In this document: in pieces, positions 1 through 54,643 of the stretch
Layout: every line of letters begins with the position of its first letter
Numbering within the stretch: position 1 is the stretch's first letter
NCBI RefSeq assembly: GCF_964355755.1
Contig: NC_092672.1
Location: forward strand, 35,222,437 to 35,286,436
Length of the DNA: 64,000 nt
Source of the DNA: Antedon mediterranea
Taxonomy: Eukaryota > Animalia > Echinodermata
Direction of reading: 5' to 3'
Notes under the pieces: generated by a model
The model's input: the letters and a program-made list of their open reading frames with translations, nothing else
Told to the model about the DNA's origin: nothing
Database searches by the model: none
Program-made: the position numbers and the translations under genes

Positions 1-420
1 ATTTGAGAGGTTATGAACTATGGACCAATGCAACATTATGCTGGACATTTTATCTGAACAAAGAATAAGTGGCCAAAGTAGTATAATTGGTGTGACAGTG
101 GATTAAGATGCAATATTTGCATCTTAATGTTGATGAACAAAACGACTATTTTATTTTGGTTTATTATTTCATTTGTGCATTCCCTGCAAATTTTATTAGA
201 AAATAAACTATGAAAAACTTATTTTTTGTTGCATCTGTGTTTCTTTTGAATGTCTATTGTGAGTGTAGTGAAATAGTCAACACAAGCACCGACCTTTTTA
301 TGAGGCATTGATTGATCGTTTCTGAAATCGATAGTTTTTTTCATCATCAGTTGTTTCTTGAAAAGAAAAACCCACACCGCTGCAAGAGCAACGAATTCCT
401 TGTCAAAACTTCATTCTCTA

Positions 421-572
421 AAGCTCTGCTTACACTATCAAACTAGTTTGACAACAAAATGTAATGTGCCCAAATATGGTAGTGATATGCTTAAATGGTA
501 GTGATATCATATGACATCTTCATGTCCATATATAGGCATGTCACATAAAGTTTGATAGTGTAGACCTAGCTT
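421..572. mobile_element. MITE family 1 copy (PIF/Harbinger-like)
   Basis: TIR AGCTCTGTCTACACTATCAAAC...GTTTGATAGTGTAGACAGAGCT, internal CCAAATATGGTAGTGATATG repeats, TAA/TTA flanks. Confidence 0.8.
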
Positions 573-1335
573 AACACCTTATAATATAGTGTATTGCAAT
601 TTCTCGTAAATTTGTAATTATTTTATACAGTATTATAATTTATTTATTCAAATTTCTACCAATAACAAACCAAACAAATTTGTGAGGCAAGGAATGACCA
701 AACATGTGCTGGACACCCAAAACAGACAAATAAAAACAATTTAATTACGAATTCAATTGAAAGTCAACTGTTCACCAACAAATACATAGAGATTACCATA
801 ACATACAATGAGAGAAATACACACAAACAAACTTTCTTAATAGCCACGCCATTTAAAATTAATGAATACATGTATAACAAGCTCTTTCAATTGTTACTCT
901 ATGTTATACTACTACAGTACTATTTTATAACTATATTTTTTTAATCTTTCTAAAATATTCATTCTTATTAATATATTTATTATTATTTACGGTAGTTATA
1001 TTGCCTTATTATCAAATCTAAAAGTTAAAAAAAAATCTAAAATAAAACTTTAAAAAAACATTTTACAGTATTATATAATATAAAAACTATTTTGCCGCGC
1101 CTTCTTGGTCCCCGCCCATTTTTTCTTTACCACACACAACGCCCCCTTTTTATTAATCACTATTCAACGATAGAGGGCGTTAAACCGATGCGCTGTTTCA
1201 TTCTTTTTTTTGCGTATCAAATTCTTTCTTTACACGCTTTGGCCGTTGTACAGTACCAGCACAATTTGGGAGGTCGTAAAATTCCGAAATTGTAACAAAA
1301 TTCGGTTGAATTTAAGAATTTAAATTACACTAAAT

Positions 1336-3197
1336 ATGTCTCGAGTTGTTCGTGGACCAGCAGGTAATAATGAATGTAGAATTTATGTAGGAAATTTGCC
1401 TCCAGATATCCGTGAAAAAGAAATCGAAGAAATTTTTTACAAATATGGAGACATTGCTGATATTGATCTGAAGGGAAAGGACAAACGAGGACCACCGTTT
1501 GCATTTGTAGAATTTCTAGATAAAAGGTAAGATGATAGCCATATGCGTATTAAGCGTTATAATTCATGGAATTCATAATTTAAAATATACATAAACTGGA
1601 TTCTGTATTAAAATTCAGGTGAGATTTTCAATGAATAAAATAGCCAGGCCCATCCATGATAATCCATCAGGTCATTAACACTGCACACAATGCCTGGCGG
1701 CGGTTACGTTTATGGGACTTTTTATGCTGTAACTTACTCCCACTCCCTACCCCAGTTCAGTTAGTTGTGCTACACTACTAAAGACCTAAGTACTACTACT
1801 TCCTATGCCTGTAGTATTAATTTATTAATATTAGGCTGTTATTAAAGTATTTATTTGCATATATTATTTAAAAATAGAATTTTACAGTACATGTACTAAG
1901 TAGTACTGGTACTTTTATACCAGTCGCTATTTAGTGAGTGTTCCGTTTTTCCAGAGATGCAGAAGATGCAGTAAATGGTAGAGATCGATACGACTATGAG
2001 GGTTATAGGCTCCGTGTAGAGTATCCCAGAGCAAGCCGTGGCGGAAGGGATGGTGGACACGGTGGTGGACGTGGAGGAGGTTACGGAGGAGGACGAGGAG
2101 GTGGTGGTTATGGTGGACGTAGAGATGACCGCGATGGTGGAAGAGGGAGAGGTCCACCAGCAAGACGATCAAAATTCAGAGTTTTAGTGTCTGGTATGCA
2201 TAAGAAAATCAAAGAGTAAAAGTATTTAAAAGATTTCAGTGTAGTGCCCTCAAGTTAAATTGACTCAATAGCATTTTTCTTTATTTAAGGTATACTATTT
2301 AAAGAAACTAAGGTGAATTGTCATTATAGCTAAGATATACATACTGTACACTGTAACAGCATAAATTTAATAATTTCAGGTCTCCCTTCAAGTGGCAGTT
2401 GGCAGGATTTAAAAGACCACATGCGCGAAGCTGGCGACGTTTGTTTTGCCGATGTTTTCCGAGACGGCACTGGTGTTGTTGAATTTGTCAGGGAAGAAGA
2501 CATGGATTACGCTGCCAGAGAATTACATGACACAAAATTTAGATCACATGAGGTAGTCTTTTTTTCAGTATTTTATTAAAAAATATTTTGGACATATCGA
2601 ATTGACATATAAATTAGTAGACTTTTATTGTATTTTAAATATCTCTGTGCTTTACATTATGCTTCTCCCTCGGTAGGTTTTTGAGATACATAAATGTACT
2701 GGGGTGGATTGCTATAAAACAGTCTTAACTGATGGTCTTAACTCCCCGATTAAAGCCGGCTTTATCAGATAGACTGTCTTATTAAAGCCACTCCTGATAG
2801 ACCATTGCTATAAAACAGTCTTAAATTAGACCACGTAAAGTAACAAATTGAGGGCGTATTTTAAAGACCGTTTACAGGTTATAGCAATGGTCTATAATAT
2901 AAGACTACTTGCTACGTCACGAATTATAGCCGGCTAAGCGCTAAGACCGGTTATAGACCGCTTATAGCAATCCGCCCCTGTTTGTTTGTAAGGAGATACT
3001 AAAAATAACATGTTTCCTTACAGGGCGAAACTTCATATGTAAAAGTGAAAGCTGACCCACTTGGGAAAGAAGGAGGACACAGCAGGAGTAGGTCACGAAG
3101 CGCGTCTCCGCCTCCTAGAAGACAGCGTTCATCGCCGCAGTATGCTCAGCACAGATCACGATCCAGCTCACGTTCTTCGTCAAGTTCCCGACGTTAA
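1336..3197 (+). CDS. SRSF1: Serine/arginine-rich splicing factor SRSF1/SRSF9-like, tandem copy A (4 coding exons)
   Basis: Exons 1336-1526, 1955-2193, 2380-2552, 3024-3197 (TAA), all GT-AG and phase-compatible. RRM1 (RIYVGNLP...PPFAFVEF), Gly/RGG linker, pseudo-RRM2 with the diagnostic [10 protein letters not shown], and a short RS tail. Confidence 0.95.
2702..2977. mobile_element. Non-autonomous Harbinger-like element in SRSF copy A intron 3
   Basis: TIR GGGTGGATTGCTATAA / TTATAGCAATCCGCCC with a 3-bp CTG duplication on both sides. Confidence 0.8.
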
Positions 3198-4528
3198 AAC
3201 ACGAAGCTTCACTTAGCCTTGCTGATGCTATGTGCTTTGGTAGATGTCACATGTGAATCTGTTAATTGTTACGTACGTGACTTTTTTTATAGCATCTTGT
3301 TAATAAAGTATTATTGATATATTATCCAAGACGTAGAATCAACTGCCAGTTGGTTAGATACGATATTTTTACAAACTTTGTGTTAAATAATCTGAAAAAA
3401 ATGTTTAGTATATTAAGTATGATGTAAAGGCCCTTTATAAGAAAACTTGAATATATCCGAGTTCTGTTTTAGAAATTCAAATTTTGGACATTCAGATCTA
3501 AAGAAAACTTAAATTTTTTACATCAGTCCATTCGATCATATTTGAGTTTTTGATGTTTTCTAAACACCCTTTCTTACTTCTATTATCTTAAGGTAACTTG
3601 TATAATGAATTGAAAAAAAAAATAAATAGTTCTGTAGGTTTGTGAATGGACACAAATTTCTACTAAAAATGTTTTGCTTATGTATAGTGATTCTGTAGAG
3701 TATGGGTACATTATAAGCCGATATGGGTTCTTCAGCTGGTCTTATTGTACAATATTATCCTCATGGTGTATGTCCTGTGGACATGTGCTTGATTAAGACA
3801 TGAATGGTGTTTATTTTAACAAATGTTTTCTAACTTTGTACAGTGTATTAAAAATGTGTCCTTTTAAAATTTCTTTTTTGTTTTTCAAATAATTAATTGA
3901 GAGTGGATAAATAAAAAATCAAGATGTTTATTCTTTAGAAAATGTGATATCGTTTGGTTGATCATTGTGTTCCTATAAATTAACAGTGTTTCTGTTTTCA
4001 TTGTTTAGGATCAATGGTAAGGATCAAAAGGACCTTCAAAGGATTTCATTTGATATTAAAAAAGGGATTAACAGAGGGATTAAGGAATCATTTTAGGAAT
4101 CATTTGGAAAGGAAGTGGCAAACCCCATATTTAAGGATCCTAGTGTCGATGGGAAGGAGGAGTCCCGTTCAGATCGGCAGTAAACAAATTTATCCATTAG
4201 GAATGCAATTCTGGAACCAGGAAATCAATTCATTCTGGATCTAAGGATCAACTAGGATTTGGATTAAAACAACTACTAACCCTCCAGTTGGCACCCTTGG
4301 GTCATGCTCATACATTCATAGGTTATTGGATTATAATTTACATTTCTGGGAAAATGGCAACTGCTGGTGATTACTTGATTGTAGGACAATATTTTTCAAA
4401 CCCAAATTAAATGCGATTAAAAATAATCCAAAAAACTAAATTTAGAATTTTTTTTTGAAAGTTTATTTTGAAAATCATTTCCTTTACTCATTAAATAAAA
4501 CAATTTTATCATGAACTGGAGAATATAC

Positions 4529-4659
4529 GTCTACACTATCAAACTAGTTTGACAAAAAAGTGTGATGTGCCCAAATATGGTAGTGATATTACATCATGCC
4601 CATATATGGGCACATCACATTTTTTTGTCGCATAAATTTTGGTAGTTTAGACAGAACTT
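4529..4659. mobile_element. MITE family 1 copy
   Basis: Same TIR and internal sequence as 421-572. Confidence 0.75.
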
Positions 4660-6258
4660 TAGATTCTTTGAGATTTGCTTGGATAATGAGGATAGCAGTC
4701 TGAAATTTTGTAATTGAAATAATTTAAGATAAAAAGCGACAAATTGTTATTAAAGTGCTCCTTTCTTTGCAGCTCTTCTACAGCACAGGAAACCTTGTTA
4801 TAGACCTACTTTTTTTCAGGGGATGGTCCCCTAAAAATGGGTATAGCAGAAACTGCATATTCTATCCTGTGGTGATATTGGAATTCATTTACTAGGAGAA
4901 AGGATTGAGGATTTGTAATGAATGATATTATTTTTTTGCGACTAAACTCCCCACTGAAGATTGTTATTGTTCAATATGTACTGTAATGTATACAAATTTT
5001 ACGCGAGTGCAATATTAGAAAACGGAGTTACGGAACCTACAGTTGTAATCATCTCGAGAATAGGAATTGAGGAATTTCCATGGTTATGTCACGGATGAAC
5101 ACAAGCTGAGAATTGTTTCAGAGGCCTAACAATTATTTGTCTTTGTTGCATCCACTGTTAAAAATCTATAATTGCTACTAATGTTAGGATGATTGATTAT
5201 GTCATCATTTTGAATTTAGCAAAATTAAATTTGACATCCTTCATATGTGTACAGATTAACATTGGTTTTTGTAATTGATTATTGTGTTGATGGCGTTCTT
5301 CACATGTGTACAAATTAACATTGGTTTTTGTAATTGATTGCGTTGATCAGCAAAATATTTTGTTTTGTCAAATTATTGAAACACTTACTTTAAAATCCTT
5401 TTTGTTCTTATTCTTTTTCTAGTTCATTTTTATTCAAATAACCAAATAAATATAATTATATTTTCTTCCATAGCACAGATTTATGAATGAGTGGCGGATC
5501 TAAAACATCCTCCCATCCCCATCCTTTCCCCCAGAGGGATTTAAAAGGAGCGCATACCTGCCCTAAGCTATCCTCTCACCCCCAGAGGTTGATTTAGAAA
5601 GATGTGCAAACCGGTACCGCCCCCCCCCCACCCCCCACACGGTATCGCTCAAACTGCTGCTGGATACACCTCTGATCCCCACACAGCATTTTTCTAGCTT
5701 GTCATCATAGGCCTAATAAAATTAATCAACTTGCCTGTGTTCAATGTTTTCATAGTCTACATTATTTTTTATATTCTGTAGTTATGTTATTATAGCTATA
5801 TATTTTACGTACATTTTTGCCACTGACAACAATAAATGTAATCATTTTTTGAAATAAATTAAGTGGAATAATGTGTACTATATATTCAAAAGTTACTGTA
5901 TAGTTAAATAATACTCGAGAAAGAAGTCATGTGTATTCATTTAACTGGTTTTAGTAACGTAATACTGTACTGAAAAATGGGCAATCCCTTATTTAAAATT
6001 TAGCTTCTACTTATACAGATATAAATCGTGAACCTGCTGTACTAACTGTATAGCTATAGGTAAATTATTCTTTTTAATCTGTAAAACGAAAGAGGGCGCC
6101 TGTCAAACAAGCAGATCCTTCCAACAAGCGGCTGGTCGCTGGTGTTACGTTTGTGTATAATTTTGTTGGATCGGTCGCAAAAGGATTATTGTTTGGGTCA
6201 CAAGATTGATATTTTTACTCAATTTGCTGGCATTAATTAATTGTTCAATACGTGAAAT

Positions 6259-8760
6259 ATGTCTCGAGTTGTTCGTGGACCAGCAGGGAATAATGAATGT
6301 AGAATTTATGTAGGCAATTTGCCTCCAGATATCCGTGAAAAAGACATCGAAGATATTTTTTACAAATATGGAGACATTGCCGATATTGATCTGAAGAACA
6401 AAAGAGGACCACCGTTCGCATTTGTTGAATTTCAAGATAAACGGTAAGATAATTAATAAAAAATACATGAATTGCATATTATATAGGGCCTACTTGTATA
6501 TAATTAGGTTCAATTTAATCTTCTATCTAGCTATTTATTGACTAGAATAAAGCTAGACTAGCTAGGCCTACATAACTTGCTTGTTGAATCTCCGATAAGC
6601 AAGTTTCAGCTGCCAGGTATGAAATGCCCAAATTCATGGCGCGCCACAAATGACAAATATCCAGTTTTGCAATGTTGCTTTAATTTTAAACCCCGTTTTA
6701 AACCAATTCATGTGGTCTTTCAAATCCTGCCAACTGCCACTTGAAGGGAGCCCTGAAATTATTAATTAGTAGTATTAATTAGTACTGAAATGTCCATATC
6801 TTTAATTCTTGTTTTCTATTCCAGAGATGCAGAAGATGCAGTCAATGCCAGAAACCGTTACGATTACGATGGTTACAGACTACGTGTGGAGTATCCGAGA
6901 GCAAGCCGAGGTGGTGGTGGTGGAGGCGGCGGAGGAGGGGGTTATGGAGGAGGACGAGGAGATGGTCCAGGAATGAGAGGTAATGATAGAGAGGGAGGAA
7001 GAGGGAGAGGTCCACCAGCAAGACGATCAAAATTCAGAGTTCTGGTGTCTGGTACGTAGAGTTACTGTATTTTGAATTTCCATAATTATTGCTATTTAAT
7101 ATGTACTGTATTATTACTTATTATCGTATAATAATTATGATTAATATAACAAAATTAATAATTTCAGGGCTCCCTTCAAGTGGCAGTTGGCAGGATTTGA
7201 AAGACCACATGCGTGAAGCTGGCGACGTTTGTTTTGCTGATGTTTTCCGAGACGGCACTGGTGTTGTTGAATTTGTCAGAGAAGAAGACATGAATTACGC
7301 CGCAAGAGAATTACATGACACAAAATTTAGATCACATGAGGTACTGTATGATAAAAGATTTAGTTTCCATCTTTTTTACAATAAAACGTCTACCTACCGT
7401 ATATTTCGGTGTATAAGTCGCACCTGTGTATAAGACGCACCCCCAACTGAGAGTAAAATATCGGTATTTTTTATATCGTCGATGTATAAGACGCACCTTA
7501 TATTTCATCAAAACAATGTTTTTTTAAATTGTAATCAATATTATTGTGATAATATATTTTGTTATATCTACAACGGCGTCCTTTATTTAGGTTTTTTCTT
7601 ACCTAGGCTCGGCCGCGCCCAGCCTCAACAAGTTCTTTCTAACTTGTTATTCATGAGTTTCGCCGCAACATCGAGTGCATGACCGTGTGTGAAACACGCA
7701 CGTGTGTGGGCTAGCCTCGCTCGATCATTTCGAGAGGGCGCACGTTTTCACGGACAATCGTATTCGATTAGTATCTATGTATCCGAGAAGTGTGTACGCT
7801 AGGTCCATGCTATAATCACCTGGAGAATATACTAGTCGAATACCGTACACCATGTGGCCACCAAAAGAAGGGCTTGCGCTTGGGGTACGGCGATCGTGCG
7901 TATAACTACTGTATAAATAAATACTATTCCAATCGTACGACGTAAACGTTTACAAATGAAATTTTATCGGAGCGCCATAATGAACAAATCTTTTCATCAT
8001 ATTTAGTATAACATCATGCTAAAATGACTTGAAAACTAGGCCTAGGCTAGGCAGAAGCAGGTTGCCGTTACGTTAGTTAGTTACTGTAGCTAGGCCTAGC
8101 CTACTCAGGCCTAGCAAACGAGGTGACGATAGCCTAGGCCTAGGCCTATGTACAATCTGTGTGGTGAGGCATTTATGTTCGGTGTATAAGATGCACCCTT
8201 AATTTGGAGGTCAAATTTGCGTGTCAAAAGTGCGACTTATACACCGAAATATACGGTATATGGCTGCGTGGTTAAGGAAGAGGCGCCGTATACCGTACCT
8301 AAAAAGCCAGTTCAGTATCGGCATGGGTTCACTCCTATTTCTGGTGGTGGAACCAGTCTTCTCGGATAAGGGATATAAACCGTAGGTCCAGTGTACAATG
8401 TTATTTGAGATGAGTAGGGAGTTACCCTGGTGAACTGGTTCACAAAATCACCTCTGCATCAGTGGGGATTAGCACCTATCTGATTGGACAGTCATTCATT
8501 TACTATTTACTAAAAAAATAAATAATAAAAATACTTGACATGCGAAAATTGTTATTTTTACACAGGGTGAAAATTCGTACATTAAAGTAAAAGCAGACCC
8601 AGTAGATATGAAAGGTGGTGGAGGGCGCCACAGCAGAAGTAGATCACGCAGCTTCTCTCCCCCGATTAGAAGTAGAAGACCACGTTCATCGTCGTATCAT
8701 CAAGGCCAGCAGCACAGATCAAGATCCAGTTCAAATTCTTCGTCAAGTTCCAGACGTTGA
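6259..8760 (+). CDS. SRSF1: SRSF1/SRSF9-like splicing factor, tandem copy B (4 coding exons)
   Basis: Exons 6259-6443, 6825-7051, 7168-7340, 8566-8760 (TGA). Same intron positions and phases as copy A, open frame throughout, [10 protein letters not shown] motif present. Confidence 0.95.
7397..8256. mobile_element. Non-autonomous Tc1/mariner-superfamily (pogo/Tc2-like) element in SRSF copy B intron 3
   Basis: Perfect 27-bp TIR CCGTATATTTCGGTGTATAAGTCGCAC, TA flanks, subterminal TGTATAAGACGCACC repeats, no transposase ORF. Confidence 0.85.
8261..8500 (+). mobile_element. tRNA-derived SINE, possibly Deu/Nin-domain type
   Basis: A-box-like TGGCTGCGTGGTTAAG and B-box-like GGTTCACTCC. Central CTCGGATAAG...AAACCGTAGGTCC and GAGTAGGGAGTTACCCTGGTG, the latter shared with 57730-57930. 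The domain assignment is from memory. Confidence 0.6.
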
Positions 8761-9011
8761 ACAAATTGCTGCTTTAAATGGCAATGATAATGATCTTTGT
8801 TTCGGTAGATGTCACATGTGAATCTGTTAATCGTTACGTACGTGACTTCTTTTTTTAGCATCTTGTTAATAAAATATTTTATTCAAGTTAGTAGCAAGCA
8901 TAGAATTAATCAAGTTTAGCTTAGTTTGGTCAGATATTGTATATTTTGTTGAACAAGTCATAATCCAGAAAACAGTATCTGAAAATGATTATTATTTATT
9001 ATGCTATTGTT

Positions 9012-9174
9012 AAGCTGTCTACACTGTCAAACTGTATGTGACAAAAAAAATGTGGTGTGCCCATATATGGACATGATGATGTCATATCGCTACCATATTT
9101 GGGCATATCACTACCATATTTGAGCCCATCACACTTTTTTTATCATAACTAGTTTGATAGTGTCGACAGAGCTT
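9012..9174. mobile_element. MITE family 1 copy
   Basis: Family TIR and internal repeats. Confidence 0.8.
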
Positions 9175-11222
9175 TAGATTAGATAGTTCCCTTGATTGAA
9201 AATTGTAAAGTATAATTGGCTAAAATGTCTACCGATTGGTGATGGTTTACTAATGAATTGTATCATTAATTACTTAGCTTATTGTGGCATGCCCATTTAC
9301 ACATTTTTTTTATCTGTTGAACGTTGTTTGTACTCATAAAGTGTACGTGTTTTAACCATAAAATGACCTTCGGGAAAAATGTTTTAAACTTTCTGCTAGG
9401 TAAATATGGAATACGGAGTCTAGTAATTGGTAAGAATAGGACCGAATTTATATGTTGATATTACATTATATAAAAAAATGTTTTGTAAACTTTGTATTGT
9501 ATTCAAATTATTTATTTAGATTAGATAAATTAAGATATTACTTTCATCTTTGGAAACCAGTCAGTCGTTTGGTTGATAATTGTGTTCCTATAAATTAACA
9601 GTGTTTCTGTTTTCATTGTCTAGATCAATGGTAAGGATCAAAAGGACCCACAAAGGATTTCATTTGATATTTAAAAAGGGATTAACAGTGCTAAAATATT
9701 TGTTAATATTCAAATTATAAAAATTCAAAAATTTTTAATCAAGAGGTGGATTCGCTTTTGGAATACAACTATTCATAGGATTACTTTAGGAAAACGGAAC
9801 CCTTTATGTAGTTCGTGGAAAGCAATTGGAGGATTACAATTTCATCCTAGAGATTCCTTCAGGAAACCACAGGGAAGTCACTGGAATTCATAAGAGAATC
9901 AACCGTGTAGGATTCACACTCCTGATAAATCTCCTAAACCTCTAAAAAGAGGAATTTTCGGATAGTTAATTCAATTTTTTGTCTTTGATAATTTAAAAAA
10001 TATGTATATTTGGATAACATTTAAAATAGGATGAAAACGGTATTTACTCTGGATATGGAATTCTGCTAGTACTTTCCTCAGGATCCAAGTGGCCTTGCAT
10101 TTATTTCAAAAGGATCATTTTATTTTGGATTCAATAAATCAGAATCCTATAGGAATTCACATTAGGATTAATGGAAGCCTCAAATAATTCAAAGGAAAAA
10201 ACAGGAATTGAATGTCCTTATATTTCAAAAGGATCAGTGTTCGATTAACAAAATTAAGGAATAGGAATTCACATTTAGGATCAAAGGAAAAATGGTGGGA
10301 AAGCAATCGCATCAGGAAAAAATCAGTACAGTACCTCAAAATTTGATTTATACCTTCAGGATCAAATTTTCATAGAAAACGATTGGATAAGGAATCTGAA
10401 AAGGGGTCAGTATGCTCTATAGCTTATTGATGGTGACATAACTGTAAAACAATTTTATTTCAATTTTAAATGATTTTATTCTTGTAAAATAGTTTTCATA
10501 TTGTGTCCATTTAACAATTTTCTTGCAGATTTTAGATTGTGGACTTCACTCCTGCAGATATGTATAGCAATCTTGTTGAATAAATTTTTGATTTTCAATT
10601 TAAACCGTTTTGTTTTGTATTAATGTCTTTCCTATGAAACATGTGGCACAAGCAAAGAGGTGATATTAAGGCGAATGCTAGAGGGCGGACTGTGTGTGCA
10701 GTGAAGGTGAATCTTATGGATAAGTTCTCTACAAGATGGATGGCAATTTTTAAACAGATTAATAATACAGTACTGTAATTGATTCTATTTTGTGAAGAAA
10801 CATATGAAAAAAGACAAGGCAAATATTTAGTTTAAATGTGTATATATTTTTTAGATTAACTATATCGAGAATGACATAGAAATATTACTTTATAGAAACA
10901 AATTCTTACAATTTGTACATAAGGATCATTTTAGAATTCATGCACCATGATTACGCTCTCTTTGCTCTTAGCTCCCTGGCGCCCCAAAACATTAATATGC
11001 AGCTTAGTGATATCGGTGTGTCCGATTGGTTGATTTGCTGCCAGCCATATTTGAGAGCCCATCACAGAAGGATGTGTTTTGCGATTCGAATGCATTGGAG
11101 TTGACAATCTAGCTTTCGGCTATAAAATCTTCATCCTTCCACCAAGTATGCCAGCATGCTAAGATAAGCAATGTAGCATTTCTGTAACTGTACAACATAC
11201 AAACAACATAACTCATTCAAAT

Positions 11223-12319
11223 TCAATCTGGACTGTTACTTCTACCTATAAAAAAAAAAAAATATATATATATTTTCTATTGGGTCAGCAGAGCATTAGC
11301 CGTAAATACTACAATCAATCAATGATACTTGACCTGCTGATGGGACCACAAAGTACTCTTCACAGGTTTTAGCAGCATTTCTCATTATTTCTTCAACATT
11401 GCCTCCTTCAGTTTCTACATCATCTCTCAACGGACAAGTTCTAAAAAATAAAAGAATTATCAATTCGTTGTACTGTTATTTATAAATTCGATTTTGAACA
11501 TAATTGGATATGTTCCAATGTGGATGTAGCTACCAGATTCCGGTGTACCTCTCTTATTACCTGTCTTCTAATACTGAATGCATTGGTTCAATCCCTGTTG
11601 TGTCAATTAAAGTAATTTGATCTGCGATTCTAATTACTTTGTTCAGCTTTTCAATACCCTCCTGATTAGCGAATTTAACCAGCGCTAGTTTTTCCAATTT
11701 TTCTACCGTTTCAAAGTCTATTTTTGTTTCCTAGAAAAAAATTAAGTACCGAAAGTTTAATAGAATACCATTAATAAAAGTTTGAACATTAATATAGTCC
11801 GACGAAAAATAAAAATTGCTTCAAAAACAAATACAGACCTCTGGTAATGTGGATTTGTCAAATTCCTTCCACACAGACTTTCTTGGAATCTAAAATTTAA
11901 AATAACTCATTGAATGAATTAAAGAACTATATATTAAGATTAGAATTAAAATTTAAAAAAATAAATGTATGTATGTGTTAAACTATTAATTATTATTTAT
12001 GTAAAATCTAAATAAAATGGTAATTATTTATTTATTATTAAAAGGGAGCAGCAGGAGAAACTCCCTGGAAAGCGGATGCCTATCGCCGCGAGGCTGTGCG
12101 TGGCTGTGTGATCTGCTGCTTGCCTGGGCCTAGCGACTAGGCCTGCATAAAATGATTGGTTTGGTGGTCTATACTTACTGCAGGATGAAAATGGTTTTGT
12201 GATGACGAACAAATAAAACGATTCAAATGAAATATATTTTGTTTTTTAATAATTATACAACATTTAGTGTATTTTAAACATTTTGAAAACAAAATGTTTT
12301 GCAACAAGGGCGCTGCCAT
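11223..12319 (-). CDS. GATC: Glutamyl-tRNA(Gln) amidotransferase subunit C, mitochondrial
   Basis: Minus-strand exons 12319-12179, 11889-11839, 11730-11561, 11440-11334, 11245-11223. Translation includes VEKLEKLALVKF...IADQITLIDTTGIEPMHSVLEDR-TCPLRDDVETEG...EEYFVVPS, matching vertebrate GATC (HLERLALVDF...DTDGVEPMESVLEDR...EEYFVAPP). Basic N-terminal presequence. The last exon is less certain: reading through exon 4 stops at 11296. Confidence 0.9.
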
Positions 12320-15236: not shown

Positions 15237-17252
15237 CAATTCTCCTACTATTTAGCCCACTAGCCCACGATATATGCTGAATAAGACATCTAATTAATCA
15301 ATATGATTCATGAAAATAAATAAACTAGAAAAGTTGCTTAAATAAAGTATTTTAATATTTAAATAATACTAACACTGAAGAGTAAGTTTTTGGAGTGCTT
15401 ATAACTTGTGTAAATAGTTTTGTAGTAAGTAACGGCATTGTGAAAAACACCAATATGGTGATTCAAGTGTTGCATCTGTTTTTAAATAAAGTTGTTATAG
15501 TATACTGGTTGCATTGACATTGACAAAATATATTAAAATTGAACGTAATTTTCACCAATAAATTTAATTATTAATTAGTATTAAATACACGCAGATTATA
15601 TTGAGTTTTTAGCCCTCTATTATGATTGAAACAACAACATTGAACATGGCGTATGCGAAATTGACGAACCGATGTGCGAGAAACACGTCTGTAAATTCAT
15701 CAATTTAAAGCATTTATTTGTCACTTTTTGTGCAATTTCCTTCGTAAAAAAGTATTTTTGAGGCCTAATTCTAAGGTGTGGTACTCACGATAAAGTTTCT
15801 TAACACATTTTGAGTCGAAATAAATGACAGGTGCGAAACTAGCGCCGTATACTGTATAAATTAATATTATGGTATTATTAATTATATGCTGTACTGAAGA
15901 ACAACCAAAATTTGATTGAAACAGGTGACATTTTAGAAATGAATTGAATTTTTTTAGAGATTGACATTGGAATGATTTAAAATTGATTTGCGGAAAACTG
16001 TTTTTCTTCCACAATTTATACATATGCGCAATTTGAACAAATAAATAACATTAAAACTGTACAGGGAATCCTTGTCTTCATTTTCCAACCACTTTTTTTA
16101 ATGAAACTGTTAATTATCTATTTTACACACTACGCAATTTGAAATGTTTTTTCGTGTGCAAATTGTAAATACCGTATCAGTGGCACCAGATTGTTTTGCA
16201 TGCTCTAACCCTATTATCAAACCAATCAATCAGTAATCTTTCGTCATTGCAATTTGTATACAGCTGTTGCAGTATTAGTCAAGACGGTATGAAAATTACA
16301 AAACTATAAAAACTCTTCTTGATATAACCATGGAGGTATAAAAATATTTTTATACCTCCATGGTATAACCAACCATGTGCGCAGTTTTCTTTATATTAAT
16401 GCCAAGAATAATATTTCTATGTTTAATTAACATTTATTTTTGACATATTAAAGTTAATTTTCAGTTTTCAATTTTATTTATATATCATTACAACAATAAA
16501 TACAAACATTTTAGTAAATGATAATTTCCCCTGTAAAATTAATAAACTGGGTTGTTATCTCTACATTGTAAGAAGAATATGACTTGAGTGTTTATAACTT
16601 AACAACTACTGTATAAGGTTCATTGACAGAGTGCTAAATACAGCAATAATACTTGGTCTTATCTGATTGGTTAATGTTAACATACATTTTCCAATCACAA
16701 CAGCGTTATATGTTTTCTGTTTATAAGATTAGAATATGTTGTCATACAGTAGGCCTACCATTTGAAACTAAAGTAAAATTGTTGATTGTTTTTAAATTAA
16801 TATTCTGCTATTTTCTTTAGCTTTCTAGATTGGAATAACAGTATATCATCTTTTTAATAAGTTGATACTTTAAGTGGTAAGATTAGTTTCATTTTTATTA
16901 CAGTAAGTTCTCACAAAATGTAATTGTTCAATCAAGGATTGCTTTCCGAAAAGTATGCTTTTTACTGAAATGTTTAATTTGTAATGTACTAACATTTGCT
17001 TTCATAGCAGGATGACTGCAATTGTCGTAAAACCTATGTTAACAATTTCTATTGAAAACATAATAGTACAGTACTTTTGTAACAAATATTATTGCAGTAA
17101 TTTATGCAGTATGCATACTGCAGTATGCATGATTGGTTTTACATTAAAAATAAGGTGCAGTTTTGTCTATGAAAAAGCAAACTCTTGTATAGAAAACAGC
17201 TAGTGTACTAGAAAACAGCTAAATCTCAAAACCTAATAGTCGAATATGTCTA

Positions 17253-28508: not shown

Positions 28509-29317
28509 ATGTGTTATGCGCGATTTGAACGATTTGCGCAATTTGAAATTGCGCAAAAAAAATCCTTGCGCAATTTGAATTGAAACATGTGTTTCAAATT
28601 GCGCAAGCAACGTATTAAATTGCGCAAGTAATCTGCAAATTGCGCAAGGTTTTTCGACAGATTGTGAAATCATGCACACCCATATTTTTATAGTAATTTC
28701 TAAGAATGATTCAAAATTAAAGATAAATATCGCATTTCCTTATTTTAGTAGTGCAAATATTGTTATAAGTTAGCATACCGTCGAAGAACCGACGAAGGAA
28801 AACGAAGCGGTGGTGTTCCACCAGGCGGGCGCAGCGCGGGCGGCCGGCTATACTACTCTAGCCTAGCTAGGGTTTGGACTACTGATACTGACTAGGTTAC
28901 ATGGCCTAGCTTAAACTAATATTAAAAACTTAAAAAGTGAGTATTAACATTATCTTCATTGAAATGGTCTTATTTACCCTATATAATAAAATACTAAATT
29001 TTAAACTCCTCTGCCTAGGCCTAGCCTAGCCATGTATGGGAAAATTTACAGTTCGTTTTCAAATTGCGCAAAGGTGTCATATTGCGCAAGAACTATCTTG
29101 CGCAATTTACAAATTGTGCAGCGCAATTTAAAATTGCGCAAAGATTTTCTTGCGCAATTTGAAATTGCGCAAGTTGATTGCGCAATTTCAAATTGCGCAA
29201 AAAAATCTTTGCGCAATTTTAAATTGCGCAAGAATTCTTTGCGCAATTTCAAATTGCGCAAGGATTTTTTTGCGCAATTTCAAATTGCGCAAATCGTTCA
29301 AATCGCGCATAACATAT
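28509..29317. mobile_element. Foldback-like element with arrays of TTGCGCAA subrepeats
   Basis: ~70-bp inverted termini (TGTTATGCGCGATTTGAACGATTTGCGCAATTTGAAATTGCGCAA...) and repeated AAATTGCGCAA units in both arms. Confidence 0.8.
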
Positions 29318-50500: not shown

Positions 50501-53500
50501 TTGCACACAATCCTGTCCACAGGTTCACCTCTGAACCCAGTTTGTTATGACTATGTTTATGAGCACGTCAAAAAGAACCTCCTGCTGGGCTCTATAACAG
50601 GTATGTTCACTCAATCAAGGCAATTATACAACAGGAGATCAAAGGGTTTATCTGTGGCTGCGACATGATCAGCTCTATGCCCATTACTGTACATGTACTG
50701 TATGTTGTGTTAGTGTTACGAGTTCTTATCTTGGCAAGGCGAGCTCAGTGTCCTGTTGTTAGATTGCCTTGATTCAATAATGTATTCCCTGGGATGAATT
50801 TCAAGTAAGATCTTACCTTTTTCTTAAGCCCTGTCTACACTATCAAACTTTATTTGTCAAAAAAATGTGATGTGCCCCATATATGGACATGATGATGTCA
50901 TATCACTACCATATGTGGGTATATCACTACCATATTTGGACACATCACACTTTTTTTGTCAAACTAGTGTAGACAGAGCTTTAGACTTTTACCATGCCTA
51001 AAGTTAATATGAATGAACTTCCTAATGTGGCATATTTATTATAACCTCACAGATGAAATCCATTGTTAGTACCTTGTAAAATTATTGTGACTGTTTTTGG
51101 TTGAGTATTATTATACAACTAGTTCTTTAAGATGCTATTATTTTTGTATACAGGTGGTACTGATATAATCTCTTGTTTTGCTGGTCAGAACTGGACAGTA
51201 CCGGTGGTACGAGGTGAGGTCCAGTGCAGGAACCTTGGCATGGCCATTGAAAGCTGGAATGAACATGGTACCAAATTTATCATTTTGTGTCTCACTTTTA
51301 TTCTTCCTTATTATATTATAAATGTTGTGTTACAAAATGCTAATATCTTTTATTATTTGTTGAACAGTGTTATGTAGTATAAAGCTCTGTCTAAAATATC
51401 AAACTATTTTGACAAAAAAAGTGATAGTGTAGACAGAGCTTAAGAAAGTTTGTGTTTTACAGGTCAGCCTATATTTGATGAAAGTGGTGAATTGGTATGT
51501 ACCAAGCCGTTCCCCTCGCAGCCTACATGCTTCTGGAACGACGAAGACTGTATCAAATATCAGAAAGCTTACTTTACTAAATTTCCAGGTAACCGAGTTT
51601 TGACCATTTGGAACAAATATTCAAAAATGTTAATATTCTAATTTAAACCACCCAGAATGGCAGTGATAAATAATAAAAATATATAATAATAATTTGTTAA
51701 TGTTTTATTCAGGTGTTTGGGCACATGGAGATTTCTGTACTATCAATTCACAAACTGGTGGAATCATAATGCAAGGGAGAAGGTAATATGAGATGACTAT
51801 CGCCTTCCTTCCCACAATGCACCTTTCATTTTCTTCCTTCTTTTTTTCTATTTCTCCTCTTCTGCTTGCTTGTCCATTTTTCACAATTTATGGCCAACTA
51901 TCCATCATAAATTTCTGTATAAATTCATTCATTTAATTTTGTATTGTTATTTTTTTCTGGTAGTGATAGAATACTAAATCCAAATGGTGTAAGATTTGGT
52001 AAAATGAGATAACTACGCCCCTTCCTTCCCACAATGCACCCTTTTTGCATCCTTCCTTTTATCTATTTCTTCTTTTCTTTTTACTTGCCTATTTCTTTTA
52101 TAGTTTATGCCTAACTATTCATCATAATAGATGTTCTCTGTATAAATTATTTTTATTCTGTTTTTTTTTGGTAGTGATGGAACACTAAATCCAAATGGTG
52201 TGAGATTTGGTAGTTCAGATATTTACTCTATTAGTAAGTGTAAAACAGTTTATCCTAAAAGTAATTTATGCAAATCTTATTCCCACAAGTAGTTGATGCT
52301 TGAGGTACTGATAAATATTTAAATAGCGCCCGCAATATTCGTAACTATTTTGTACTGCATCCTATGTGTTTGTCACTCTATTGGCAATAGGCCCACCATA
52401 AATAAGACGGAAAAGTCTCAAATACAAAGTTTTACCCTCATTATTTGTAGAGTTTTTACATGTCTCAGAAATTATATCTCAAGTTAAGTCTTTGATATTT
52501 AATCATGAGTTAATCATATGCTACTGGCTAACTTTTGAGAGGCCTAAACAAATTTACTTTTCAGTTGAGCCGATGATAGAGATAGAGGACAGTCTTTGTG
52601 TTCCGCAGTACAACAGTCAACGAGAAGAAAGAGTTGTCTTGTTTCTAAAGATGTCAAAGGATTGTCCGTTTGATGACCATATTGTTAAAGCTGTTAAGAC
52701 TAAAATCAGACAAGGGTTGTCTGCTCGCCATATTCCCACCAAAATACTGCCCACTCAGGATATTCCTGTAAGTTTTTCATAAAAAATTGAATTGAAAAAT
52801 TGTTGATTTTAAAGCAATTTTTTACCTTCCTACAGCGTACATTTTTTAGTGTCTTTGAAATGCATTTAAGAGTCTTCAATTCTCCCATTTTACACTAATA
52901 AGGTTCTGTGCTGTATGATGCGTTCAGACACAAAATGATAGGGTTAGGGTAACACCATCAGTGTGAACAGGGTGTTAGTGATGCGCAGCAAATTTTACCT
53001 TCATTTAAGAGTCAGCATTTATAATGCATTTATACACAAAATGTTAGCGCCGACGTACACTAAAATGCTGTAACACTATCATAGTGAACAGGGTGTTAGT
53101 GATGCGCAGCAATGCTGTAACACCATCAGTGTGAACAGAGTGTTAGTGATGCGCAGCAATGCTGTAACACCATCAGAGTGAACAGGGTGTTAGTGATGCG
53201 CAGCAATGCTGTAACACTATCAGAGTGAACAGGGTGTTAGTGATGCGCAGCAATGCTGTAACACCATCAGAGTGAACAGAGTGTTAGTGATGCGCAGCAA
53301 TGCTGTAACACCATCAGTGTGAACAGAGTGTTAGTGATGCGCAGCAATGCTGTAACACCATCAGTGTGAACAGGGTGTTAGTGATGCGCAGCAATGCTGT
53401 AACACCATCAGTGTGAACAGGGTGTTAGTGATGCGCAGCAATGCTGTAACACCATCAGTGTGAACAGGGTGTTAGTGATGCGCAGCAATGCTGTAACACC

Positions 53501-54643
53501 ATCAGTGTGAACAGGGTGTTAGTGATGCGCAGCAATGCTGTAACACCATCAGTGTGAACAGGGTGTTAGTGATGCGCAGCAATGCTGTAACACCATCAGT
53601 GTGAACAGGGTGTTAGTGATGCGCAGCAATGCTGTAACACCATCAGTGTGAACAGGGTGTTAGTGATGCGCAGCAATGCTGTAACACCATCAGTGTGAAC
53701 AGGGTGTTAGTGATGCGCAGCAATGCTGTAACACCATCAGTGTGAACAGGGTGTTAGTGATGCGCAGCAATGCTGTAACACCATCAGTGTGAACAGGGTG
53801 TTAGTGATGCGCAGCAATGCTGTAACACCATCAGTGTGAACAGGGTGTTAGTGATGCGCAGCAATGCTGTAACACCATCAGTGTGAACAGGGTGTTAGTG
53901 ATGCGCAGCAATGCTGTAACACCATCAGTGTGAACAGGGTGTTAGTGATGCGCAGCAATGCTGTAACACCATCAGTGTGAACAGGGTGTTAGTGATGCGC
54001 AGCAATGCTGTAACACCATCAGTGTGAACAGGGTGTTAGTGATGCGCAGCAATGCTGTAACACCATCAGTGTGAACAGGGTGTTAGTGATGCGCAGCAAT
54101 GCTGTAACACCATCAGTGTGAACAGGGTGTTAGTGATGCGCAGCAATGCTGTAACACCATCAGTGTGAACAGGGTGTTAGTGATGCGCAGCAATGCTGTA
54201 ACACCATCAGTGTGAACAGGGTGTTAGTGATGCGCAGCAATGCTGTAACACCATCAGTGTGAACAGGGTGTTAGTGATGCGCAGCAATGCTGTAACACCA
54301 TCAGAGTGAACAGGGTGTTAGTGATGCGCAGCAATGCTGTAACACCATCAGTGTGAACAGGGTGTTAGTGATGCGCAGCAATGCTGTAACACCATCAGTG
54401 TGAACAGGGTGTTAGTGATGCGCAGCAATGCTGTAACACCATCAGTGTGAACAGGGTGTTAGTGATGCGCAGCAAACTAAATGAATGACTCTGTCTTTGT
54501 TTCAGTATACATTAAGTGGAAAGAAGGTTGAAGTTGCCGTAAAGAAGATTATAGCTGGCGAGTCGATTGAAAGTCGGGGAGCTTTCAAAAATCCAGAATC
54601 GCTCGATTTGTTTGAAAACATTTTAGAACTCCAGGACTTCTGA
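44537..54643 (+). CDS. AACS: Acetoacetyl-CoA synthetase (16 coding exons)
   Basis: Exons 44537-44666, 46130-46233, 46438-46555, 46767-46880, 47468-47565, 48234-48430, 48895-49048, 49349-49429, 49886-50010, 50413-50600, 51154-51267, 51463-51588, 51713-51782, 52175-52233, 52565-52767, 54506-54643. Motifs [82 protein letters not shown]. Confidence 0.96.
46882..47202. repeat. 19/26-bp minisatellite starting at the AACS intron-4 donor
   Basis: (TAAGAGACAGGTTATTGAT[TATTGAW])n. Confidence 0.9.
48553..48800 (+). mobile_element. tRNA-derived SINE next to a truncated MITE family 1 copy (48469-48552)
   Basis: TGTGGCTTTGTGGTTA (A-box-like) and GGGTTCAAGTCC (B-box). No complete cloverleaf. Confidence 0.55.
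49115..49257. mobile_element. MITE family 1 copy
   Basis: Family TIR and internal repeats. Confidence 0.8.
50613..50774. mobile_element. TIR element family 2 copy
   Basis: AATCAAGGCAAT...ATTGCCTTGATT termini and shared internal blocks. Confidence 0.7.
50826..50980. mobile_element. MITE family 1 copy
   Basis: Family TIR and internal repeats. Further partial copies at ~36440-36559, 37730-37854, 50129-50260, plus a 60-bp TIR-only copy at 51382-51441. Confidence 0.8.
51964..51998 (+). other. Partial duplicate (pseudo-exon) of AACS exon 14
   Basis: TGGTAG|TGATAGAATACTAAATCCAAATGGTGTAAGATTTG|GTAAAA versus the real exon GGTAG|TGATGGAACACTAAATCCAAATGGTGTGAGATTTGG. Part of a ~212-bp tandem duplication of intron 13. 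Confidence 0.8.
53063..54475. repeat. Homogeneous 47-bp tandem array (~30 copies) in the last AACS intron
   Basis: (AATGCTGTAACACCATCAGTGTGAACAGGGTGTTAGTGATGCGCAGC)n. An isolated unit lies at ~52949-52991. Confidence 0.97.

What the first reader, a model, noticed from the sequence alone, without database searches (positions are those of the whole stretch)
6709..7211. Perfect 59-nt antisense copy of the exon-3 splice acceptor inside intron 1 of SRSF copy B
Seen: 6709-6767 is the exact reverse complement of 7153-7211, i.e. the last 15 nt of intron 2 including the AG plus the first 44 nt of exon 3 ([14 protein letters not shown]). It carries copy-B-specific bases (CAGGGCTCCC, GATTTGAAAG), and copy A has no such insert. 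In the pre-mRNA this forms a 59-bp stem with exon 2 in a 385-nt loop, burying the acceptor unless intron 1 is removed first. Skipping exon 3 gives an immediate stop (GGG TGA), and skipping exons 2+3 frameshifts. Inference: a cis-acting structural or kinetic attenuator that lowers the output of the extra copy of a dosage-sensitive splicing factor, and/or a source of dsRNA (ADAR substrate, endo-siRNA) or an antisense intron able to pair with exon 3 of both paralogues. A recent neutral template-switch insertion is the main alternative.
Basis: partly seen in the sequence, partly recalled or inferred. Interest (0 to 1): 0.8.

Follow-up and report, generated by a model that had tools for sequence, protein, structure and literature searches.

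The report
Inverted repair copy in SRSF1 intron
A backwards 59-base copy of an exon's start sits in an upstream intron of a duplicated splicing-factor gene; a related species lacks it, so it is likely a DNA-repair scar of a known kind, and although it is predicted to fold over the splice site, nothing here shows that it changes splicing.

Summary
The repeat is real: 6709-6767 is the exact reverse complement of 7153-7211 (intron-2 acceptor plus 44 nt of exon 3) in copy B of a tandem SRSF1-like pair, and it matches B, not A, at 3 of 3 diagnostic sites. A run of the likely source sample carries its downstream junction; the upstream junction was not seen. Two samples of a related species (about 3.6% divergent) hold the orthologous intron without it, and also hold both gene copies. 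None of 7 other intron-1-complete SRSF1-like loci has such an arm. Size, distance and junction repeats fit a repair-mediated proximal duplication (Pace 2009). Perfect identity needs no selection (P 0.14-0.21 even if as old as the species split). A 59-bp stem over the acceptor is predicted (-110.7 kcal/mol), and longer inverted duplications accompany exon skipping in human disease, so an effect is plausible but untested: no RNA data resolve exon 3 of copy B. Verdict: new member of a known mutation class, probably unselected; a selected attenuator is about 12% likely. The scan noted similar inverted exon-edge copies in other genomes.

The parts
6709..6767 (-). Inverted 59-nt copy of the intron-2/exon-3 junction inside intron 1 of SRSF1-like copy B
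   Evidence: downstream junction in run X2
7153..7211 (+). Donor arm: last 15 nt of intron 2 with the acceptor AG, plus the first 44 nt of exon 3
6667..6813 (.). 147-nt stretch of intron 1, containing the insert, that is replaced by 44 other letters in organism B (net +103 nt here)
   Evidence: tables 5 and 8, runs X6 and X8
6684..6708 (+). Upstream junction zone: 9-nt direct repeat (6684-6692, 6696-6704) and a 4-nt word (6705-6708) repeated at the far end of the insert (6764-6767)
6760..6791 (+). Downstream junction zone: 12-nt direct repeat (6760-6771, 6773-6784) that shares 8 nt with the end of the insert, and a 7-nt word (6785-6791) also inside the insert (6753-6759); candidate microhomologies (inferred)
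6259..6443 (+). Copy B coding exon 1 (RRM1)
   Evidence: joined to exon 2 in a contig of run X5
6825..7051 (+). Copy B exon 2 (227 nt), inside the predicted loop
7168..7340 (+). Copy B exon 3 (173 nt, SRSF1-type RRM2)
8566..8760 (+). Copy B coding exon 4 (RS domain) to the stop codon; protein 259 aa
1336..3197 (+). Tandem paralogue, copy A (coding exons 1336-1526, 1955-2193, 2380-2552, 3024-3197; 258 aa); its 2365-2423 matches the arm at 56 of 59

Best explanation
The 59-nt arm is an exact inverted copy of the nearby exon-3 junction, absent from a related species, and likely arose as an unselected DNA-repair or template-switch insertion that would pair with the acceptor in only some transcripts. 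Origin (inferred): a broken or stalled DNA end in intron 1 annealed about 400 nt downstream through a few AT-rich bases, copied 59 nt or slightly fewer in inverted orientation, and rejoined, leaving short repeats and filler at both junctions. Consequence (predicted): as the donor arm emerges it can zip onto the intronic arm, starting at the acceptor, and cause some intron-2 retention (139 aa) or exon-3 skipping (138 aa). This competes with intron-1 removal and spliceosome binding. The loss is likely tolerated because copy A encodes a near-identical RRM2 and SRSF1 levels are buffered by autoregulation (shown in human cells, assumed here).
For: Shown: organism B contigs bridge the site without the arm in 2 of 2 runs laid (X6: 409 and 219 letters on the two sides; X8: 409 and 98; two samples, one study). 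The donor is 385 nt away, the insert is over 50 nt, spans an intron-exon boundary and has no poly(A) tract, as in proximal repair-mediated duplications (PMC2671141). Short direct repeats lie at both junctions. 0 of 7 other genomic SRSF1-like loci with intron 1 complete carry an arm (longest match 10 nt). At 3.6-4.5% divergence a neutral arm as old as the split has P 0.14-0.21 of still being perfect. Organism B has both gene copies without the arm. Human SRSF1 autoregulation buffers transcription (PMC9262138, abstract). Co-transcriptional folding was suggested to be mostly local, about 60 nt (PMC2724269 citing Eperon 1988, passage), against a 385-nt loop here.
Against: Polarity rests on one comparison species, with no outgroup: a loss in organism B is not formally excluded. 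The 44 ancestral letters were not seen, so microhomology is inferred, and 44 of the 103 extra bases are not part of the arm. The X2 junction contig is unbroken and at a depth like its neighbours (243 against 244-287), which suggests both haplotypes carry the arm; that fits drift but also selection. The stem exceeds the 50-nt threshold for an in vivo effect (PMC2275289 citing Solnick and Lee 1987), and the same review that cites local folding shows long-range stems that do act (PMC2724269), so the effect may not be small.
Confidence: 0.56

Rival explanations
1. Same accidental origin, but the stem forms efficiently and largely cripples copy B. B is then a hypomorph sheltered by copy A and drifting towards a pseudogene, as in human disease alleles with intragenic inverted duplications.
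For: Predicted duplex -110.7 kcal/mol, pair probabilities 0.93 or more for 57 of 59 pairs. The stem is already favoured when 13 nt of exon 3 have emerged. Exon skipping accompanies inverted duplications in CHM (PMC8756506) and MANBA (PMC6549551). 59 nt is above the 50-nt in vivo threshold.
Against: Copy B's frame and all three introns are intact. Of 11 listed coding differences to organism B, 6 are synonymous and the 5 others lie in the Gly linker or RS tail (the list was cut, 112 rows not shown). The human cases have stems of kilobases, and their hairpin mechanism was proposed, not tested. A B exon 1-exon 2 spliced contig exists in another sample, though it is unknown whether that sample has the arm.
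Confidence: 0.22
2. One reading: a selected cis-acting attenuator. The stem masks the acceptor in a kinetic race with intron-1 splicing and tunes down the second copy of a dosage-sensitive splicing factor.
For: The arm covers the acceptor and pairs first with the part that emerges first. Both haplotypes of the sequenced sample seem to carry it (inferred). SR proteins use unproductive splicing to limit their level (abstract).
Against: Organism B keeps two copies without it. No recurrence in 7 of 7 comparable loci. No covariation is available, and identity is explained by age. It has no input from SRSF1 level, so it would be a fixed leak, not feedback (inference). A search for a precedent (5 of 6 terms) found 0 papers.
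Confidence: 0.12
3. The arm acts through double-stranded RNA: ADAR editing, endo-siRNA, exon-2 circularisation, or pairing of the excised intron with exon 3 of both paralogues.
For: The arm would pair with copy A at 56 of 59 (-95.9 kcal/mol). The stem flanks exon 2.
Against: No Rfam match in 1-12000. Excised introns are usually short-lived (recalled). No data show editing or small RNAs; contigs cannot show them.
Confidence: 0.06
4. Assembly or library chimera (fold-back).
For: The upstream junction is not covered by any listed X2 contig. The downstream contig has 30 letters on the arm side, one short of the tool's bridging rule. X2 is probably the source sample. A scrambled contig (L010) shows that fold-back chimeras can make this shape on SRSF1 sequence.
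Against: The junction contig is at the depth of its neighbours, unlike a rare chimera. The contig 7012-7182 breaks 30 letters into the repeat. The depth of the contig over the donor arm (427.5) fits a doubled core on a single-copy depth of about 320, against about 309 next door (rough, as the tool warns that depth is not copy number).
Confidence: 0.04

Closest known systems
Repair-mediated duplications by capture of proximal DNA (Pace et al. 2009, PMC2671141; read: abstract, introduction, section 7, passages)
   Same: Lineage-specific insertion of 50 bp or more, donor within 5 kb, no poly(A), acceptor in an intron. The paper reports donors that are partial exon/intron (4 of 824) and one exon copied in inverted orientation into an intron of its own gene (ACSBG2).
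   Different: Described in vertebrates and found inside transposons. Here the host is an AT-rich animal with short introns, the empty-site letters were not seen, and the copy covers a splice acceptor of the same pre-mRNA 385 nt away.
Germline MMBIR-type templated insertions (PMC8421209; passages) and snap-back SD-MMEJ (PMC5728401; passages)
   Same: Inverted copy of a nearby template with short junction homologies; such events occur as germline variants.
   Different: Those studies looked within 100 bp and 30 bp of the junction; this donor is 385 nt away.
Pathogenic intragenic inverted duplications in CHM (PMC8756506; passages) and MANBA (PMC6549551; first fifth of the text and passages)
   Same: An inverted copy of an exon and its splice signals in a neighbouring intron, proposed to form a pre-mRNA hairpin that causes exon skipping.
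   Different: Stems of 1.7-13 kb covering whole exons, with skipping seen in patient cDNA. Here 59 bp cover the acceptor and a quarter of the exon, and no skipping has been shown.
Conserved long-range stems that mask splice sites in Drosophila (PMC2724269; passages) and inverted Alu loop-out skipping (PMC13019027; abstract)
   Same: Long-range intramolecular pairing near splice sites as a way to alter splicing.
   Different: Those stems are conserved across species or built from repeats and lie in introns. This arm is unique sequence, is missing in a close relative, and pairs with the exon itself.
SRSF1 negative autoregulation by unproductive splicing (PMC9262138; abstract)
   Same: Unproductive splicing that lowers SRSF1 output.
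   Different: That is feedback by the protein on its own transcript. A fixed hairpin has no such input, and no unproductive isoform was observed here.

Membership tests
Repair-mediated proximal duplication (Pace 2009) | Inserted copy of 50 bp or more of genomic DNA | tested here: met
   59 nt, includes intron sequence
Repair-mediated proximal duplication (Pace 2009) | Donor within 5 kb on the same chromosome | tested here: met
   385 nt; B-specific at 3 of 3 sites, so not from copy A 4.3 kb away
Repair-mediated proximal duplication (Pace 2009) | Empty orthologous site in a relative | tested here: met
   2 of 2 organism-B runs bridge the site without the arm; one study, no outgroup
Repair-mediated proximal duplication (Pace 2009) | No poly(A)/poly(T) tail of retrotransposition | tested here: met
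   Flanks read directly
Repair-mediated proximal duplication (Pace 2009) | Microhomology, deletion or filler at the breakpoints, judged against the empty site | tested here: inconclusive
   4-, 9- and 12-nt repeats at the junctions and 147 letters in place of 44, but the 44 letters were not displayed
Snap-back SD-MMEJ / short-range MMB-TI | Template within 30-100 bp of the junction | tested here: not met
   385 nt against the limits used in PMC5728401 and PMC8421209
Functional splice-site-masking RNA stem | Stable predicted pairing over the splice site | tested here: met
   Acceptor mean unpaired probability 0.03 with the arm, 0.40 with it held open; but copy A's acceptor also scores 0.10 without any arm, so this measure discriminates poorly
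Functional splice-site-masking RNA stem | Conservation or compensatory change across species | tested here: not met
   Absent in organism B and in 7 of 7 intron-1-complete loci
Functional splice-site-masking RNA stem | Altered splicing that is lost on disrupting the stem and restored by compensation | not testable with these tools
   Only assembled contigs were listed; needs raw RNA reads and minigenes
SRSF1/SRSF9-type SR protein (host gene) | RRM1, Gly linker, SRSF1-type RRM2 and RS tail | tested here: met
   (13 RS/SR dipeptides in the last 60 aa); no tree was built, so SRSF1 against SRSF9 is by best hit only

The most novel reading that the evidence does not exclude
A single recent repair accident gave one paralogue of an essential splicing factor a built-in antisense clamp on its own exon-3 acceptor. 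The clamp lowers copy-B output through a race between intron-1 splicing and stem formation, and was fixed because it rebalances dosage: a regulatory RNA structure born fully formed by inverted duplication, with a sister species as the before-state.
Probability: 0.12. Interest if true: 0.68.

Novelty: new member of a known kind. Interest (0 to 1): 0.3.

Why it matters
As it stands it is one more locally templated inverted duplication, a known mutation class. Its value is as a natural experiment: a 59-bp perfect stem with a 385-nt loop sits just above the reported in vivo threshold for structure-induced alternative splicing, in a small four-exon gene, with a paralogue and a sister-species orthologue as controls. 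If it shifts splicing it would show how one repair event can create a splicing regulator. If it does not, it marks how much perfect pairing over an acceptor a cell ignores.

Tried and rejected
No whole genome is held, so the genome-wide rate of such copies was not measured. Within the window it is the only one of 22 local inverted alignments recognised as copying coding sequence (the other 21 were judged by repeat counts and not annotated one by one). One search listed 17 runs, none on record as RNA: no RNA holder listed, no evidence either way. 4 of the 17 were laid (X2, X5, X6, X8); the other 13, including organisms C and D (shares 0.05-0.10), were not, so outgroup status and the upstream junction stay open. 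Run X5 (same organism, other sample, RNA only by guess) has no contig on intron 1 and no listed copy-B path through exon 3; the only exon-3 contig listed is A-like. This is not used as evidence, because contigs drop minor paths and a filter leaves records out. Likewise its contig depths (about 36 and 35 for B pieces, 386 for the A piece) cannot rank the genes. No exon 2-4 joint for B was listed (31 joints not shown). A poison pseudo-exon on the sense strand was considered (cryptic AG 6745 with GT 6782) and rejected: it would leave a 43-nt intron. L010, the only 1 of 80 loci with an inverted hit, is a scrambled, intronless contig with several fold-backs and was not counted as a parallel. Rfam: 0 matches. 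Scan look-ups by place and by sequence were empty. Paper searches; none of the listings showed an inverted-arm attenuator in an SR gene duplicate. Solnick and Lee 1987 and Eperon 1988 were seen only as cited by other papers. No supplements were read.

Full report
Observation. The window holds two tandem SRSF1-like genes, A (1336-3197) and B (6259-8760), each with four coding exons and GT-AG introns. Exon 3 encodes an RRM whose best solved relatives are human SRSF1 RRM2 (Pfam RRM_1). In B, 6709-6767 is the exact reverse complement of 7153-7211, 385 nt away. It is the longest of 217 perfect inverted matches in the window, and 20 shuffles gave at most 19 nt. It matches B rather than A at 3 of 3 diagnostic sites.

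Is it in the DNA? Seventeen public runs hold part of the gene, all as contigs; four were laid. In X2, probably the source sample, a contig 6738-6908 joins the last 30 letters of the arm to intron 1 and exon 2, at depth 243 against 244-287 for neighbouring contigs. The contig 7012-7182 stops 30 letters into the donor arm. Both are what a 31-mer graph does at a real repeat, though 30 letters is one short of the tool's bridging rule. The contig over the donor arm has a depth that fits a doubled core (rough). The upstream junction is not covered by any listed contig: the intron contig ends at 6692. A small heterozygous difference there would explain this, but that is a guess. The junction contig is unbroken and differs from the window at 6805, which suggests that two haplotypes both carry the arm (inference). 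An artefact is unlikely (about 4%) but not excluded.

Is it conserved? No. In organism B (runs X6 and X8, two samples, one study) one contig runs from 6258 to 6666, holds 44 other letters, and resumes at 6814: the orthologous intron has no arm and is 103 nt shorter here. These runs also hold A-type contigs, so the gene duplication is older than the split and organism B lives with two copies and no arm. Divergence over four aligned pieces is 42 of 1177 letters, 3.6%. A neutral arm born at the split would have gathered 1.6-2.0 mismatches on average and stay perfect with P 0.14-0.21; a younger one more often. Of 80 SRSF1-like loci from metagenomes (the best 80 of 261), 61 have AG at the acceptor position (a loose filter that also passes spliced contigs) and 7 hold intron 1 whole; in those 7 the longest inverted match to the acceptor region is 10 nt. 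The one hit among all 80, L010, is a fold-back chimera. These loci are distant (74-87% protein identity) and many are short, so this only shows that the arm is not a general SRSF1 feature.

Origin. An insert of over 50 nt, copied from genomic DNA across an intron-exon boundary, with its donor 385 nt away, no poly(A) tail and an empty site in a relative, meets four tested features of repair-mediated proximal duplications (PMC2671141). That paper includes partial exon/intron donors and an inverted exon copy in its own gene. Short direct repeats of 4, 9 and 12 nt sit at the junctions and 44 of the extra bases are not part of the arm, as expected of filler, but the empty-site letters were not displayed, so this test is inconclusive. 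The distance is beyond the 30 bp and 100 bp ranges used for snap-back SD-MMEJ and MMB-TI, so the pathway is left open between SDSA-like capture and a fork template switch. The direction of the event (gain in A) is inferred from the perfect match and lacks an outgroup.

Predicted effect on RNA. The duplex is -110.7 kcal/mol in cis and -95.9 with copy A. In folds of the growing transcript the arm is about half open until the donor arm appears, and the stem is favoured by position 7180, 13 nt into exon 3. Intron 1's acceptor is made 329-387 nt before the donor arm, so intron-1 removal and spliceosome binding race the stem. Once paired, excising intron 1 would not release the acceptor (inference). 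The caveat is that copy A's acceptor is also predicted mostly paired (0.10 unpaired) with no arm. The literature cuts both ways. Inverted repeats changed splicing in vivo only above about 50 nt (cited in PMC2275289); folding was suggested to be local, yet long-range stems act in Drosophila (PMC2724269); kilobase inverted duplications accompany exon skipping in CHM and MANBA. In run X5 (another sample, RNA by guess) a contig joins B exon 1 to exon 2 with no mismatch and another covers B exon 4, so B appears to be transcribed and intron 1 spliced; whether that individual has the arm is unknown, and nothing resolves B exon 3.

Weighing. Best: an unselected repair scar with a small or buffered effect (0.56). 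Same origin with strong damage to B, sheltered by A (0.22). Selected attenuator (0.12): against it stand organism B, the lack of recurrence, the lack of any feedback input, and existing SRSF1 autoregulation (PMC9262138 abstract; human cells). Double-stranded RNA roles (0.06). Artefact (0.04). An earlier scan note on another genome pointed me to Pace 2009 and to the 'repair scar' wording; I read the paper but did not check those loci, and they are not counted as support.

Verdict. Real, lineage-specific, a new member of a known mutation class; function untested. Interest 0.3, mainly as a compact natural test of whether a 59-bp long-range stem over an acceptor changes splicing.

Noticed in passing
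window 1336-3197 and 6259-8760: The paralogues look homogenised in the RRM exons: codons differ silently at 7 of 57 (exon 1) and 7 of 54 (exon 3) identical residues, against 39 of 108 in exons 2 and 4 (Fisher p 0.001 and 0.002, chosen after seeing the data). The last 13 nt of intron 2 are identical although the introns do not align. This suggests gene conversion; selection on exonic signals is the alternative.
   Followed up: partly
window 7280-7304: The exon-3 contig of run X5 has the copy-A base at 7293 but the copy-B bases at 7280, 7301 and 7304; organism B's A-type contig shows another mixture. These mosaics fit ongoing conversion between the copies.
   Followed up: partly
window 7395-8258: An 864-nt element with perfect 29-nt terminal inverted repeats that begin and end in TA fills most of intron 3 of copy B; summed contig depth is about 2000 times the flanks in X2. 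It looks like a non-autonomous Tc1/mariner-type element (label recalled, not tested).
   Followed up: no
window 8310-8480: A second very high-copy repeat in intron 3 of copy B, present in all four runs laid; no Rfam match.
   Followed up: no
window 417-580, 4529-4660, 9006-9180 and about ten more places: A family of 130-180-nt elements with inverted ends is spread through the window in both orientations.
   Followed up: no
window 28509-29317: A foldback-like region with 50-nt perfect (71-nt, 97%) inverted arms and internal palindromic units.
   Followed up: no
window 52923-54585: A tandem array of about 30 or more 47-nt units, 96-97% alike in its core.
   Followed up: no
window 16327-16364: A perfect 38-nt palindrome with no loop, unique in the window.
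   Followed up: no
L010 1-1051: A scrambled intronless SRSF1 contig with three fold-back inversions and a 55-nt direct repeat, probably a library chimera.
   Followed up: yes
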